IMG/VR virus record: IMGVR_UViG_3300030382_003905
Location: 4,399 to 68,398 of that record
Direction: 5' to 3' (one strand)
Source of the DNA: a virus
Length of the DNA stretch: 64,000 nt
The first letter of the stretch is position 1; every line of letters starts with the position of its first letter. Under the pieces are notes generated by a model. It saw only the letters and a program-made list of their open reading frames with translations, was not told where the DNA came from and ran no database searches. Both the position numbers and the translations under genes were made by a program. Shown here piece by piece: positions 5,765-62,043 of the stretch.

Positions 5765-8700
5765 ATGGCTAATAATATTTTTTATACTAATATAGTACCA
5801 AGCGCAGACAATTCTGTAGATTTAGGTACTACTGACTCTTTAGATTTTAAAACTTTATATATTAGAACTATTGATATATATAACCAAAGAGTTAATATAT
5901 CCTCTACTGGCACTTTAGCTACATTTGCAGACCACACTTCAGTAGGAGACGGAATTCAATTCTCCCACTTGGGAACAGAAATACTACGACTTGGAAATGG
6001 CAGTGATACATCTGCAACTTTTGCAGGGGACATCGCAGCAACTAGCGGTAAACTAAATATCACCAGCGATGGATCAGCTGCTAGTGGAGCAGAAATATAT
6101 TTAAAACACGCTAATAATAATACCACTGATACTATAGGTACTATATTCTTTGGTAACAATGCTGATGACACTCTTTCTTTAATAGTTGCTGAAACCAACG
6201 GTGCTAATAATACAAGTAATTTAAAATTTAGAACAAGCAACGCTGGTACTTTAGAAACTGCTCTTACTTTAAACGCTGATAATAGCGCAACTTTTGTAGG
6301 TACTGTAGATATTGACACTATTAACGAAATAGGTAGTGATACAGATAAAATCCTTATGTCTGACGGTGGTACAGTTAAATATGTAACAGGTGCTAATTTA
6401 TTATCTTATATAGGTGGAGGAACAGGAAGTGGCAATGTTTCAAACACTGGGACGCCACTTAATAACCAGGTAGCTATATGGACAAACGCCACTACAATAG
6501 AAGGAGACGCGGATTTAACATTTGACGGAACTCATTTAACAGTAGGTACTGGAGGAAGTATATACTCAGGGGATGATTTTGTTTTACCGACTTTAGGTAC
6601 AAGTGGGTCTCCGAGTAATCATTATTTAATGTGTAACAATACTTCTACGGGAGGAGGCAAATTATATGTCCAAGCAGGAGCAGGTTCTTCAGGGTATGGA
6701 GGAGGATTAATTTTATATGGTCATTCTCACGCAAGTCAACCAGGATGGATAAAAGCAGGAATTTCTTCTGGTTCTGGAGGAAAATTTGGTGTAAACACAC
6801 AAGGTCTTGGAGGTGGTACAGATGTATTCACGGTAGATGCTTCAGGTGTTGTATCTATAACTGCCGATGGTAGTAATGCAGCTACGCTTACAGAAAGTGA
6901 TAGTGGTGATTTTACTATTGCTTCTACTGATGATTTAAGATTAGATTCAGGCGGTAATGATATAGTATTAAGAGGAGCAAGTAGTCAAGAATTTGGTAGA
7001 TTATCAAATGATGATGGTAATTTCCGTATTAGAAATATTACAAGTGATAAAGATATTAATATTGAAGGAAATGATGGTGGCTCTACAATAACAGCGCTAT
7101 CATTAGATATGTCTGCATCTGGTTACGCTACGTTTTATGATGGCGCAACTCTTTCAGGACACGTAATTATTAGTGATGCAGGAAATGGAAATTCGCCAAT
7201 ACTTTCAGTTACAGATACAGCCGACACAGAAGCTGCTTGGTTTACAAGTAATAGGGCAGGAGACACAGGAGGATATATTGCAATAAGACATTTGCCTACA
7301 ACAGCAGCCGAATCTAATAGGACAGGTATTAAGTTTCAAGCAAAAGATGATGGAGATGTTGTAACCACTTACGCAGCAATAACTCAATATATAAAAGATT
7401 ATACAGGAGGAACAGAAGATGGTTATTTAGCATTTAGTACAATTCAAAATGCTACTTTAACAGAAGTTATGAGAATAAGTGACAATGTAGGAATAGGTTG
7501 CACAGACCCAACAGGAAAGTTGGAAATTCAACAAGCACAAGTAACAACTCAATTTGATAGAGATTGTTTCTTAAGATTACACCCATCTGCAACCACAGAT
7601 GCAGGTGGCTTTACAAATATGTTTTTTGGTACTTCAACAACTAATAATTATGGAGTTGCTATAGGTGGTAAAAGAGAGGGTACAGGAGATGGAGAGCCTA
7701 CTTTTGCTATTAGAATGTTAGATGATGGTATTACAGGAACAGAAGTTTTAAATATTAATAGTACTGGTGATGCAACTTTTGCAGGTAGTGTAACCATAGG
7801 TAGTATTGCTGAAGTTGGTAGTGATACTGACAAATTCTTAATGTCAGATAGCGGGGTAGTTAAGTATGTAACAGGAGCTAATCTTGCTACTTATATAGGA
7901 GCAGCTGTTGGAGCTGATTACTTACCTCTCGCTGGTGGCACTATGACAGGTGCTATAACCATGCCTAATAATATAGGTATAACTTGGTCAACTGGATCTA
8001 TAAGAACAGAGAGTAGTGTTTTAAAATTAGTAGGTAATAACGGCATACAATTACAAGATAATACTCAAATATATTTTGATGGTGGTGATGCCCCTGTAAG
8101 TTTAGACATACATAATGCAGGTACTGCCTCTGGGGATGATGCTAAAATAACATTTGAAACCCAAGCTGCAATGGACTGGGCTATTGGTATTGATAAAAGT
8201 GATAGCAATTCATTTAAAATCTCAAGACATCAGAATTTAGGAACTAATGATGTTTTTAGCCTTACAACTAACGATGCAACTTTTGCAGGTGATGGGGATT
8301 TTGATGGTCATGTTAGTGTAAATAAAAATAACACATCAGGCGTAGCTTTAACTATAGGTGGAGAGTCAGGAAATGGAATTAAAACTCAATACATTTTTGG
8401 GGGCACGGGTCAATATAATTGGCAAATTGGAACATCAACCCACTTTTCTCAAACATTATCAATAACCCCTTCAAGCGCAACTGCGGGTACTACATTTACA
8501 ACTCCAATTCTAAACTTAGATGGTTCAAATAATGATGCAACTTTTGCAGGTACACTTACCATACCTAGCTATATTTATCATACAAGTGATCCAAGCGATG
8601 ATACTTATTTTGGATTTAGTGCTAATGATACTTTTACAGTTTATACAGCTGGAGGTGAAGGATTAAATATTGATTCAAATAGAGATGTAACTCTTACAGG

Positions 8701-32517: not shown

Positions 32518-33051
32518 ATGAACAAGAAAGAGAGTCTAATTGCTAAAAAAGTTTTAGGGGAAATAGCAAATAAGAGAGGTGTAATGTGGGATAAAATTTC
32601 ACATTTTAAACAACAGTTAAATAAAATTGAAGGAGTATTAACTCATAAGGCAGGTGAAGAACAAAGTGCAGGTTTAAAAAAAGCCGCTCCCTTAAAGCAT
32701 AATTTTGAAGGAGGGTTATATACCAGAACAATGTTTATGCCAAAGGGGTCTATAATAGTAAGTATGATACATAGACAGCAACATCCTTCTTTTTTATTAA
32801 AAGGAGAATTATCATATCTTACTGATGAAGGAGAGGTGAAAAGAATAAAAGCTCCACATACGGTGTTCACTCAAGAAGGGACTCAAAGAGTCTTTTATGT
32901 GCATCAAGAAAGTATATGGACATGTGTATACAAAACAGACGCTACTACAGTAGAGGGTGCAGAGTTAGACATATATGCGGATGAATATGTGGAATTACCA
33001 CAAGAATTAATAAATAAAACTAAAAAATTATGGCAGGAACAGCCGCAATAG
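32518..33051 (+). CDS. cupin-like protein
   Basis: HNFEGGLYTRTMFMPKG..SMIHRQQH..LLKG..APHTVFT cupin pattern; TATCTTTG at ~32495. Confidence 0.7.
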   Translation: MNKKESLIAKKVLGEIANKRGVMWDKISHFKQQLNKIEGVLTHKAGEEQSAGLKKAAPLKHNFEGGLYTRTMFMPKGSIIVSMIHRQQHPSFLLKGELSYLTDEGEVKRIKAPHTVFTQEGTQRVFYVHQESIWTCVYKTDATTVEGAELDIYADEYVELPQELINKTKKLWQEQPQ

Positions 33052-59222: not shown

Positions 59223-59429
59223 TTAGTTATTTATTTTTTCTTTAATATATTTTAATGCCATTAGATAACCAAATTGTACTGCCATTTGCGTCAGCACTAC
59301 ATCATTAGATCCATTGTTGGCGTTAGCAAAATTATCTAACGCATCTCTATCTTCTGGCGTGGCCACTAAAGATCTCTCAAAAATCTTTAGTTGTTTCTCT
59401 ATTATTTTCTCTATTTTTTTTGTTTGCAT
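59223..59429 (-). CDS. early hypothetical protein
   Basis: 68 aa, repeat motif upstream. Confidence 0.65.
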   Translation of the reverse strand: MQTKKIEKIIEKQLKIFERSLVATPEDRDALDNFANANNGSNDVVLTQMAVQFGYLMALKYIKEKINN

Positions 59430-59449
59430 TGTTATAGTTTTTAATTGTT

Positions 59450-60280: not shown

Positions 60281-60341
60281 GAAACGCCAGGGTTTTAAAC
60301 CCAGGACTGAAAATAATATTCTCAGATTTTTTCGGCGTTTC
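60281..60341 (-). ncRNA. predicted three-way-junction RNA in the early transcript
   Basis: GAAACGCC/GGCGUUUC closing stem around CUGAGA/UUUCAG and GGGUUU/AAACCC hairpins; GC-rich island in an AT-rich spacer. Confidence 0.45.
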
Positions 60342-61226: not shown

Positions 61227-61472
61227 TTATTTTATAGCATCAGCATCTTTACAAAGATATTTTTTGTTAGATATTAGCTGGTTTAGTTTTCTTTCTTTGT
61301 TATCCTGTATTGATTTGTCTAATTGTATTAAATACAATCTAAAAGGAATAACAACAAGGTTGTTACATTCACTGCAACAACTCCCTTGTTCCATTGTTTT
61401 AATTGGCTCAGGATTATTGCCCCCTGTAAATTCTTGTTCACAGATTACGCATTTTTGGTTTTTGTGTCCCAT
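61227..61472 (-). CDS. Zn-finger early protein
   Basis: CVIC..GNNPEP..CCSECN..VIPxR. Confidence 0.7.
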   Translation of the reverse strand: MGHKNQKCVICEQEFTGGNNPEPIKTMEQGSCCSECNNLVVIPFRLYLIQLDKSIQDNKERKLNQLISNKKYLCKDADAIK

Positions 61473-61487
61473 TGTTATAAGTGTTAA

Positions 61488-61646
61488 TTAATATTTATCT
61501 GTTATTTTATAACCATCTACTGAAATTTCGATTTCACAAATTTCATCTTGAGCGTCTTTGTCTGTAATTCCTAACTCCGATAAAAAATAGTTCCACTCGT
61601 CTTTATCTTTAAAATAGCGTTCTAAAAATGTTATTTTGTTTCTCAT
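61488..61646 (-). CDS. 52-aa early protein just downstream of the ribozyme (absent from ORF track)
   Basis: MRNKITFLERYFKDKDEWNYFLSELGI...TDKY*. Confidence 0.6.
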   Translation of the reverse strand: MRNKITFLERYFKDKDEWNYFLSELGITDKDAQDEICEIEISVDGYKITDKY

Positions 61647-61670
61647 TGTTATAGATGTTAATTAATATTT

Positions 61671-61730
61671 GCTTGCTCTGTTTCTGCTTTTGCTTCATCA
61701 GGTTAGGCGCGCACCTAACGACAGAAAAGC
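61671..61730 (-). ncRNA. hammerhead ribozyme, type III
   Basis: GCUUUUCUG-UC^GUUAGGU-GCGC-GCCUAAC-CUGAUGA-AGCAAAAGCA-GAAA-CAGAGCAAGC: full catalytic core, GUC cleavage triplet, paired stems I and III, short stem II. Confidence 0.85.
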
Positions 61731-61760
61731 CCCCAGACAGATCAACTCTCTGGAGGCCTT
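61722..61760 (-). terminator. terminator-like hairpin abutting the ribozyme
   Basis: AAGGCCUCCAGA...UCUGGGGGCUUU stem with a short U tract, right after the stop of 61765..62043. Confidence 0.55.
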
Positions 61761-61764
61761 TATT

Positions 61765-62043
61765 TTAATTCAAATCTTTTAATTTATATACTTTATCAGC
61801 TATTTTCTGACGTGTTTGTGCGATATTCTCGCCCAAAAAATGATTTCTATACTTCCCTGTCGTCCTGGAATAGTCCCAGGCGTTACGATCTAATATAGTA
61901 GGTTTATTGCCGTAAGGAATAAACGCAATAATGCTATTATAACTCTGAAAATAAACGCCTTTATTCGTTCTAATTTCAAATTGATTTGGAATTTTATTTC
62001 CGTTGTAACTTGTCATGTTATTGACTTTAATTTTTGTTATCAT
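61765..62043 (-). CDS. conserved phage early protein
   Basis: PNQF..FQSYNSIIA..WDYSRTTGKYRNHFL. Confidence 0.75.
   Translation of the reverse strand: MITKIKVNNMTSYNGNKIPNQFEIRTNKGVYFQSYNSIIAFIPYGNKPTILDRNAWDYSRTTGKYRNHFLGENIAQTRQKIADKVYKLKDLN

What the first reader, a model, noticed from the sequence alone, without database searches (positions are those of the whole stretch)
61671..61760. Self-cleaving hammerhead ribozyme inside the early operon, interlocked with a terminator-like hairpin
Seen: the - strand, which is the sense strand here, reads GCUUUUCUG-UC^GUUAGGU(GCGC)GCCUAAC-CUGAUGA-AGC(AAAA)GCA-GAAA-CAGAGCAAGC. It has the CUGAUGA/GAAA core, a GUC cleavage triplet (cut predicted between 61720 and 61719), a 7-bp stem I and a ~9-bp bulged stem III. 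Stem II is unusually small: 2 bp, with A-A where the usual G-C pair sits. The 5' strand of stem III doubles as the 3' end and U tract of a 12-bp hairpin directly upstream. Known: this is type III hammerhead topology. Inference: the phage cuts its own polycistronic early mRNA after the third gene without host RNases, leaving a hairpin-protected upstream piece and a 5'-OH downstream mRNA that carries the small-gene array. Competition between the hairpin and stem III could couple termination to cleavage.
Basis: partly seen in the sequence, partly recalled or inferred. Interest (0 to 1): 0.85.

Follow-up and report, generated by a model that had tools for sequence, protein, structure and literature searches.

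The report
Phage hammerhead ribozyme with minimal stem II
The reported motif is a genuine type III hammerhead (self-cutting RNA) between two small genes of an uncultured phage; it belongs to a large phage family with an unusually small second stem, a known kind of element whose role in cutting long phage messages is still untested.

Summary
The motif is present on the - strand exactly as described. It is not chance: a relaxed hammerhead descriptor finds it once in the window and 0 times in 300 simulated windows.

Two pattern scans of viral contigs gave 80 distinct related elements. The parts that were not in the search patterns covary strongly:
- Stems I and III are 95.1% paired, with 214 double-change cells against 60 in shuffles.
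- The A15.1-U16.1 pair is present in 80/80.
- The cleavage triplets are all NUH.

The window's odd stem II (A.A plus two G-C pairs) recurs in 23/80. Within that subclass stems I and III still covary. A model built only from the other 57 sequences finds the window element at 51.8 bits.

Rfam misses the element entirely. A canonical relative scores 45.4 bits on Hammerhead_3, below the 48.5 cut-off.

A stable hairpin abuts stem III in 58/80 relatives, against 119/800 control positions. It is compatible with the ribozyme fold rather than competing with it.

Cleavage and its function are not tested. This is a new member of a known kind (Perreault 2011). The scan has noted phage hammerheads on other DNA before.

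The parts
61765..62043 (-). Upstream gene, 92 aa, unknown function (phrog_21575); stop codon TAA at 61767-61765
   Evidence: homologues found in 78 viral loci
61729..61757 (-). G+C-rich hairpin directly 5' of the ribozyme (9 pairs, a G/G mismatch, 2 more pairs, loop UUGAU). The minimum-energy fold extends it by A-U and G.U pairs to 61760-61726
   Evidence: A comparable hairpin ends within 3 nt of stem III in 58/80 relatives, against 119/800 random positions. It aligns weakly to the terminator parts of unrelated leader RNA models
61725..61728 (-). UUUU run after the hairpin (UUUUCUGU to 61721). Its last U (61725) is the outermost base of the conserved stem III
   Evidence: Not listed by the terminator scan
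61721..61725 (-). Stem III, 5' strand (UCUGU); U61721 is U16.1
   Evidence: U-A pair in 80/80; the other four pairs show 4-5 pair types
61719..61720 (-). Predicted cleavage site: 3' of C61720 (C17 of the GUC triplet), 5' of G61719
   Evidence: Position follows from the hammerhead rule. Triplets in 80 relatives: GUC 50, GUA 18, AUA 4, UUC 3, GUU 2, UUA 1, AUC 1, CUA 1, all NUH. Cleavage not tested
61702..61719 (-). Stem-loop I: GUUAGGU-GCGC-GCCUAAC. The tip AGGUGYGYRCCU is the family signature
   Evidence: the three outer pairs are 100% paired with 5 pair types each; the inner pairs were fixed by the search pattern
61695..61701 (-). Core CUGAUGA (C3-A9)
   Evidence: N7 varies in relatives: U 57, A 12, C 9, G 2
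61685..61694 (-). Minimal stem-loop II: A10.1.A11.1 mismatch, G-C and C-G pairs, loop AAAA
   Evidence: this class in 23/80; invariant within the class
61677..61684 (-). Core GAAA (61684-61681) and stem III 3' strand (A61681 to A61677)
61488..61646 (-). Downstream gene, 52 aa, no family match; its AUG lies 30 nt after the end of stem III

Best explanation
61677-61725 (- strand) encodes a genuine type III hammerhead self-cleaving ribozyme. It belongs to a large family found on uncultured phage contigs. The family signature is the stem I tip AGGUGYGYRCCU. The window's copy is of a recurrent subclass whose stem II is cut down to an A.A mismatch, two G-C pairs and a tetraloop.

Inferred mechanism:
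- The element is transcribed as part of the - strand small-gene operon and folds just after the stop codon of the 92-aa gene.
- It cuts 3' of C61720.
- The upstream message then ends in a G+C hairpin followed by ...UUUUCUGUC with a 2',3'-cyclic phosphate.
- The downstream message starts with a 5'-OH and the stem I hairpin, 73 nt before the AUG of the next gene.
- The hairpin abuts stem III and probably shields the ribozyme fold from the translated upstream sequence. It may stack on the short stem III, and it caps the upstream product.

Shown here: the sequence features, the family, the covariation, the hairpin association and the intergenic same-strand setting.

Inferred, not shown: cleavage in vitro or in vivo, the fate of the products, and the timing of the operon.

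The confidence given applies to the identification as a functional hammerhead. I put the mRNA-punctuation role at about 0.55.
For: (1) All hammerhead elements are present at the stated coordinates.

(2) Chance is excluded. The relaxed descriptor gives 1 hit in the window and 0 in 300 simulated windows.

(3) A scan using only the core, stem II and GAAA gave 6 loci. Four of them (L083, L084, L085, L086) also carry GUC, stem I and stem III, with compensatory changes.

Of 83 distinct matches I kept 79. With L086 that makes 80 aligned sequences.

(5) Stems I and III: 95.1% of 1040 cells are paired, against 73.7% in shuffles. There are 214 double-change cells against 60. None of 500 shuffles reach the observed values, and slid controls pair 31-44%. 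The U16.1-A15.1 pair is present in 80/80.

(6) Stem II covaries in the other classes. The three inner pairs show 3-6 pair types.

(7) The A.A subclass (23 sequences) on its own is 94.2% paired, and 7 pairs show changes on both sides.

(8) Leave-out model R2 was built from the 57 sequences that are not A.A. It finds 61672-61729(-) at 51.8 bits, E 1.7e-13. The next hit scores 12.9 bits.

(9) The canonical relative L091 matches Rfam Hammerhead_3 end to end at 45.4 bits, E 2.6e-9.

(10) Setting:
- A same-strand ORF ends within 150 nt upstream in 56/80; the commonest gap is about 25-40 nt.
- A same-strand ORF starts within 150 nt downstream in 63/80.
- Both hold in 44/80.

(11) At least 10 loci carry 2-3 copies spaced about 370-530 nt apart. 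The published idea is that phage hammerheads cut long transcripts into gene-length mRNAs. Stem II of two pairs and a U10.1-U11.1 mismatch are documented (PMC3088659, passages and section 8).
Against: - No Rfam hammerhead model matches the window element, even at E<=10 in a 111-nt search.
- 10.1-11.1 is the best-conserved stem pair after 15.1-16.1. The source cited in PMC3088659 found U.U to be the most active mismatch, so A.A may be slow.
- The nearest-neighbour minimum-energy fold pairs the 5' strand of stem I with part of CUGAUGA instead. It is 4 kcal/mol better than the canonical secondary structure: -35.7 against -31.7.
- The core CUGANGA and the inner stem I pairs were fixed by my search patterns, so their invariance proves nothing.
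- The sequences are related to each other, and the shuffle control ignores that.
- My crude ORF caller puts 22/80 elements inside a same-strand ORF of at least 60 aa, and 13/80 inside an opposite-strand one.
- Only 2 of 78 loci that encode the upstream gene's homologue carry such a ribozyme, so it is dispensable at this junction.
- There is no RNA evidence of any kind.
Confidence: 0.85

Rival explanations
1. It is a decayed or very slow hammerhead. The fold is inherited, but the A.A mismatch with only two stem II pairs leaves too little activity to matter, and the RNA is kept for another reason or not yet lost.
For: - Rfam models do not recognise it.
- The 10.1-11.1 pair is the most conserved stem pair after 15.1-16.1, and among mismatches only U.U is reported as well tolerated.
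- The element is absent from 76 of 78 loci that share the upstream gene.
Against: - The same A.A stem II occurs in 23 of 80 distinct elements on many contigs.
- Within that class stems I and III keep pairing through changes on both sides (94.2% paired).
- The closest relative differs at 5 of about 50 positions, all tolerated by the model: N7, the loop, A-U to G.U, and the optional sixth pair.
- Stem II of two pairs, or even one pair, is active in published cases.
Confidence: 0.1
2. The functional unit is the hairpin plus U tract, acting as an intrinsic terminator at the end of a three-gene transcript. The ribozyme acts only on read-through transcripts, or termination and cleavage compete.
For: - The hairpin is followed by UUUUCUGU.
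- It aligns weakly to the terminator hairpins of unrelated leader RNA models, with E values of 0.47-3.8.
- The fold z-score for the region is -3.19.
- Termination within the U tract and ribozyme cleavage would give nearly the same 3' end.
Against: - The terminator scan did not list it.
- The close relative L086 and the canonical relative L091 have the hairpin but no U run after it.
- The hairpin and the conserved 5-pair stem III do not overlap, and they form together in the minimum-energy fold, so no switch is needed.
- A ribozyme that is conserved downstream implies substantial read-through.
Confidence: 0.2
3. The ribozyme is active, but its purpose is not message punctuation. Possibilities: it makes a 2',3'-cyclic-phosphate or 5'-OH end used for ligation or circularisation, for priming, or in an interplay with host RNA repair or defence. 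Alternatively it belongs to a mobile cassette that spreads between gene junctions.
For: - Its distribution among junctions is sporadic: 2 of 78 loci with the same upstream gene have it, and L006 has three copies at other junctions.
- The stem I tip is identical at the nucleotide level across many contigs, including 14 hammerhead-like hits on contigs binned to very different bacteria.
- The literature leaves the function open (PMC3088659 and PMC6765202, passages only).
Against: - The stereotyped position fits mRNA processing most simply: about 25-40 nt after a stop codon and about 15-35 nt before the next start, on the coding strand.
- Perreault et al. report that they did not detect spliced or circular products.
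Confidence: 0.12
4. It is a chance resemblance: two unrelated hairpins after a gene, plus fortuitous CUGAUGA and GAAA.
For: - Rfam gives no hit.
- A 2-bp stem II is easy to find by chance.
Against: - 0 of 300 simulated windows contain such a motif.
- 80 related elements show covarying stems and invariant core positions that were not part of the search patterns.
Confidence: 0.01

Closest known systems
Hammerhead ribozyme, type III (Rfam RF00008, Hammerhead_3)
   Same: - Core CUGANGA...GAAA.
- A15.1-U16.1 pair and NUH triplet.
- Three helices; open at stem III, with loops closing stems I and II.
- A canonical family member (L091) aligns to the model end to end at 45.4 bits.
   Different: - The window copy has A.A where G10.1-C11.1 normally sits, and only two further stem II pairs.
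- No Rfam hit for the window copy at E<=10.
- None of the 24 pattern matches in the 17 loci tested reached the gathering score.
Clustered hammerheads flanking genes in prophages and phages (Perreault et al. 2011, PMC3088659)
   Same: - Intergenic, on the coding strand of phage operons.
- Relatives carry 2-3 copies about 370-530 nt apart.
- The proposed role is cutting long phage transcripts into gene-length mRNAs.
   Different: - This genome has a single copy.
- The conserved stem I tip and the abutting upstream hairpin are not mentioned in the passages I read.
- The paper's figures and supplements could not be seen.
Natural hammerheads with weak stem II: two-pair or one-pair stem II and the U10.1-U11.1 mismatch (PMC3088659, section 8)
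   Same: - Minimal stem II, with a mismatch at its base.
- 21 of 80 family members carry U.U.
   Different: - Here the mismatch is A.A (23 of 80).
- I found no description of a natural A10.1.A11.1 hammerhead in the passages read. A full-text search for 'hammerhead' with 'A10.1' gave 2 unrelated papers.
RNase III processing sites of the phage T7 early transcript
   Same: Works alike: a polycistronic early phage RNA is cut between genes, and the upstream product keeps a 3' hairpin.
   Different: - Here the cut would be made by the RNA itself, not by a host enzyme.
- The ends would be a 2',3'-cyclic phosphate and a 5'-OH.
Intrinsic (rho-independent) terminator
   Same: G+C hairpin followed by UUUUCUGU in the window.
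   Different: - It is followed at once by a conserved ribozyme that must be transcribed.
- Two relatives checked by eye (L086, L091) lack the U run.
- It was not listed by the consensus scan.

Membership tests
Hammerhead ribozyme (type III) | Conserved core C3-U4-G5-A6-N7-G8-A9 and G12-A13-A14 | tested here: met
   CUGAUGA at 61701-61695 and GAAA at 61684-61681. GAAA was not in the search pattern. It is present in all but 2 of the 83 distinct matches; L135 and L148 lack it.
Hammerhead ribozyme (type III) | A15.1-U16.1 pair and an NUH cleavage triplet | tested here: met
   GUC at 61722-61720. U-A pair in 80/80 relatives. All 80 triplets are NUH.
Hammerhead ribozyme (type III) | Three helices around the core, supported by covariation | tested here: met
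   Stems I and III. Stem II in the classes that are not A.A. In the window's own class stem II is invariant, so it is uninformative.
Hammerhead ribozyme (type III) | G10.1-C11.1 pair at the base of stem II (quasi-conserved) | tested here: not met
   A61694 and A61685 face each other. Family tally: G-C 25, extra U plus G-C 11, U.U 21, A.A 23, of 80. The U.U exception is published.
Hammerhead ribozyme (type III) | Type III topology: open at stem III, with stems I and II closed by loops | tested here: met
Hammerhead ribozyme (type III) | Tertiary contact between the stem I and stem II loops | not testable with these tools
   Only indirect evidence. The four true hits of the scan that did not specify stem I all carry the RGGUGYGYRCCU tip. 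Two loop II positions are A in at least 90% of the 80 aligned sequences.
Hammerhead ribozyme (type III) | Site-specific self-cleavage giving a 2',3'-cyclic phosphate and a 5'-OH | not testable with these tools
   No RNA run was listed.
Rfam RF00008 Hammerhead_3 | Score at or above the curated gathering cut-off (48.5 bits) | tested here: not met
   Window: no hit even at E<=10. Relative L091: 45.4 bits. The 17 related loci at gathering gave 0 hammerhead hits.
Intrinsic terminator | Stable G+C hairpin followed directly by a U tract | tested here: inconclusive
   Hairpin and UUUUCUGU are present. Not listed by the scan. The U run is absent in L086 and L091.

The most novel reading that the evidence does not exclude
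The G+C hairpin and the hammerhead form one self-contained cassette that makes mRNA ends and moves between gene junctions of uncultured phages.
- The hairpin abuts the short stem III, stacks on it and insulates the fold from translation of the upstream gene.
- After the cut the hairpin caps the upstream message. Terminated transcripts and cleaved transcripts then share one 3' end.
- The four interchangeable designs at the junction of the core with stem II (G-C, extra U, U.U, A.A) set different cleavage speeds, and so tune how much of each neighbouring gene's message survives.
- The same operon may use a different punctuation device at another junction: the three-way-junction RNA at 60281-60341.
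Probability: 0.25. Interest if true: 0.6.

Novelty: new member of a known kind. Interest (0 to 1): 0.4.

Why it matters
Hammerheads in phage operons have been known since 2011, but their function has never been shown (PMC3088659 and PMC6765202, passages). This case adds four things:
- A large phage family that the curated Rfam cut-off misses, so standard annotation will not see it.
- A recurrent natural A10.1.A11.1, two-pair stem II design. It can be compared directly with sister elements that carry G-C, U.U or an extra U at the same place.
- A measurable association with an abutting hairpin, which suggests how both cleavage products are stabilised.
- A compact single-copy setting: three genes, then hairpin and ribozyme, then the gene array. 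A catalytically dead point mutant there could test what the cut does for gene expression.

Tried and rejected
- Rfam at gathering score on the whole window: 0 matches.
- Rfam at E<=10 on 61400-62000 and on 61650-61760: no hammerhead family. The only hits were weak matches of the upstream hairpin to terminator parts of unrelated leader and sRNA models.
- Exact 28-nt scan of viral contigs: 0 matches.
- blastn of 2 kb around the site against named phages: three weak matches of 68-74 nt to Pelagibacter phage genes, none covering the ribozyme.
- blastn of the 58-nt element against named phages: no match.
- RNA evidence: no RNA holder was listed by the look-up of sequencing runs.
Only 14 passed my hammerhead filter, and one more (L187) looked hammerhead-like by eye. 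These lie on contigs binned to very different taxa, and the rest are chance matches in G+C-rich sequence. No host could be inferred.
- Second copies: models R1 and R2 found none in the window or in the whole 68,398-nt record. The weak hits at 32812-32850 and 6910-6971 lack stem I.
See the first-reader verdict.
- tRNA-like reading of 60281-60341:
  - ARAGORN found nothing.
  - Rfam gave only a weak mascRNA-like match, E 1.1.
  - blastn-short against the fetched viral loci found nothing.
  - My T-arm regex did not recognise it either.
  - It is left as a lead.
- The supplements of PMC3088659 (Figures S6-S8, sequence lists) are closed. They may already contain A.A variants or members of this family.
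- The extra-nucleotide (A10) viroid hammerhead of De la Pena and Flores is recalled from memory only. It was not read, and I do not rely on it.

Full report
**What is there.**
- The window is the last 64 kb of a 68,398-nt viral record.
- The - strand from about 62,850 down to about 55,800 carries an array of small genes. Helicase and primase-like genes follow on the same strand. Terminase, portal and structural genes lie on the + strand.
- After the stop codon of a 92-aa gene (61767-61765), the - strand reads as follows:
  - a hairpin with G+C core 61757-61729;
  - UUUU;
  - CUGUC, followed by the stem I hairpin GUUAGGU-GCGC-GCCUAAC;
  - CUGAUGA;
  - A-GC-AAAA-GC-A;
  - GAAA-CAGAG.
- The AUG of the next gene follows at 61646.
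The hammerhead rule puts the cut between C61720 and G61719.

**Is it chance?**
- I wrote a relaxed hammerhead III descriptor. It required stem I of at least 5 pairs, stem II of at least 2 pairs with a mismatch allowed at its base, stem III of at least 4 pairs, NUH, CUGANGA and GAAA.
- It finds this site and nothing else on either strand of the window. It finds nothing in 300 first-order Markov simulations of the window.

**Rfam.**
- No family reaches its gathering score anywhere in the window.
- No hammerhead model matches at E<=10, in a 601-nt or a 111-nt search.
- On its face this argues against the claim, so the case rests on comparative evidence.

**Relatives.**
- The 92-aa gene has homologues in 78 viral loci.
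- The closest locus, L004 (80% protein identity; the same contig as L086), has the same hairpin and motif at the same junction.
- Within about 50 nt of the motif L004 differs at 5 positions. All are places the hammerhead model tolerates:
  - N7;
  - two loop I bases;
  - one A-U to G.U change in stem I;
  - the optional sixth pair of stem III.
- A scan with only core + stem II + GAAA gave 6 loci. Four carry a GUC, a stem I and a stem III that were not in the pattern, with compensatory changes. For example, stem I is GUUAGGU/GCCUAAC, GUAAGGU/ACCUUAC, UAUAGGU/GCCUAUA or AAUAGGU/GCCUAUU, and stem III is CUGU/ACAG or AACGU/ACGUU. The other two loci (L082, L087) are plain chance matches.
- A second scan with only the stem I tip and CUGANGA hit the 100-stretch limit. 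It gave 83 distinct matches, and 79 were kept. With L086 they form the 80-row alignment A2.

**Covariation.**
- On A2, stems I and III are 95.1% paired, against 73.7% after shuffling. There are 214 cells changed on both sides, against 60. The covariation score is 0.588 against 0.162. None of 500 shuffles reach these values, and slid controls pair only 31-44%.
- The three outer pairs of stem I were not in the pattern. They are paired in 80/80 and show 5 pair types each.
- Four of the pairs of stem III show 4-5 pair types. U16.1-A15.1 is invariant.
- A sixth stem III pair forms in only 37/80.
- The cleavage triplets are GUC 50, GUA 18, AUA 4, UUC 3, GUU 2, and UUA, AUC and CUA one each. All are NUH. 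N7 varies freely.
- Caveats:
  - the inner stem I pairs and CUGANGA were fixed by the pattern;
  - the sequences are related to each other;
  - the shuffle control ignores that relatedness.

**The odd stem II.**
- The family shows four designs at the junction of the core with stem II:

| Design | Count of 80 |
|---|---|
| G10.1-C11.1 | 25 |
| Extra U, then G-C | 11 |
| U.U | 21 |
| A.A with two G-C pairs and a GAAA or AAAA loop | 23 |

- In the non-A.A classes the three inner pairs of stem II covary.
- The 23 A.A sequences analysed alone are 94.2% paired, and 7 pairs show changes on both sides in stems I and III. The fold is therefore under selection in the window's own subclass.
- A covariance model built only from the 57 sequences that are not A.A finds 61672-61729(-) at 51.8 bits, E 1.7e-13. 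It places the two A's on the 10.1/11.1 pair. The next hit scores 12.9 bits.
- A canonical relative (L091) aligns end to end to Rfam Hammerhead_3 at 45.4 bits, E 2.6e-9. That is just under the 48.5 cut-off.
- At gathering score, none of the 24 pattern matches in the 17 related loci was reported.
- The family is therefore recognisably hammerhead type III, yet it falls through the curated threshold.

**The hairpin.**
- In 58 of 80 elements, a hairpin of -8 kcal/mol or better ends within 3 nt of stem III. The figure for random positions of the same loci is 119 of 800. The hairpin sequences differ widely.
- In the window the hairpin's G+C core ends 3 nt before the conserved stem III.
- The minimum-energy fold of the 116-nt region forms the hairpin and a three-way junction together. 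They are neighbours, not competitors.
- Only the window and a few relatives have a U run after the hairpin. L086 and L091 do not.
- I therefore read the hairpin as a companion of the ribozyme, serving as an insulator, a stacking partner or a 3' cap of the upstream product. It may also terminate some transcripts in this phage. That reading is inference.
- A point against tidy folding: the nearest-neighbour optimum pairs the 5' strand of stem I with part of CUGAUGA. It is 4 kcal/mol better than the canonical secondary structure. Such models ignore the tertiary structure of the core.

**Setting.**
- In relatives a same-strand ORF typically ends about 25-40 nt upstream of the element, and the next one starts about 15-35 nt downstream.
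- An ORF lies within 150 nt upstream in 56/80, downstream in 63/80, and on both sides in 44/80.
- My crude ORF caller also places 22/80 elements inside a same-strand ORF of at least 60 aa.
- At least 10 loci carry 2-3 copies spaced about 370-530 nt apart.
- This genome has one copy.
- Among the 78 loci sharing the upstream gene, only L004 (same junction) and L006 (three copies at other junctions) carry the ribozyme. It comes and goes between junctions.

**Literature.**
- Perreault et al. 2011 (PMC3088659; passages and section 8 read) describe the following:
  - hundreds of bacterial hammerheads, many in prophages;
  - multiple copies flanking genes;
  - the idea that long phage transcripts are cut into gene-length mRNAs;
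  - stem II of two pairs or even one pair;
  - a U10.1-U11.1 mismatch.
- A 2019 review (PMC6765202; passages read) says the purpose remains to be defined.
- I found no mention of a natural A10.1.A11.1 hammerhead in what I read. A full-text search for 'hammerhead' with 'A10.1' gave two unrelated papers. The supplements are closed.
- Earlier notes of this scan report many phage hammerheads on other DNA. They include an A.A variant of a type I hammerhead and hairpins preceding phage hammerheads. I treated these as leads only.

**Verdict.**
- The identification as a type III hammerhead is well supported by comparative evidence.
- The proposed processing role is the most likely function, but it is untested.
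- The 'interlocked terminator' idea is not supported as stated.
- This is a new member, of a recurrent minimal-stem-II subclass, of a known kind of element.

Noticed in passing
window 60281-60341 (- strand): A second structured RNA lies in another gene junction of the same operon. An 8-9-bp closing stem encloses two hairpins (-25.2 kcal/mol, z -4.17). It has a weak match to the tRNA-like mascRNA model (15.5 bits, E 1.1). ARAGORN calls no tRNA, and there is no blastn match in the fetched loci. It could be a different processing signal.
   Followed up: partly
L091:3733-3765 (+): A DUF805b RNA motif (Rfam RF02914) scores above its gathering cut-off (42.7 bits against 35.6). It lies about 530 nt downstream of that contig's hammerhead.
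   Followed up: no
window 61634-61670, 61460-61496 and 59415-59446 (- strand): The stretch just after the ribozyme, which includes the next gene's start region, recurs at two other small-gene junctions at 89% and 85% identity.
   Followed up: no
L104, L144 (three copies each); L102, L113, L126, L136, L142, L143, L145, L152 (two each): Related contigs carry arrays of these hammerheads at roughly 370-530-nt spacing, about one per small gene. Different stem II classes occur side by side in one array.
   Followed up: partly
L188, L209, L219, L223, L230, L232, L253, L259, L262, L271, L274, L279, L295, L303: Hammerhead-like elements with the same stem I tip occur on contigs binned to very different bacteria, including candidate-phyla-radiation groups and a Flavobacteriaceae bin. 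None is of the A.A class. The other rows of that scan are chance matches.
   Followed up: partly
window 61696-61720 (- strand): The predicted minimum-energy fold pairs C61720-U61713 with A61703-G61696. This alternative helix would hide C17 and most of the CUGAUGA core. It could be an inactive conformer or an artefact of the energy model.
   Followed up: partly
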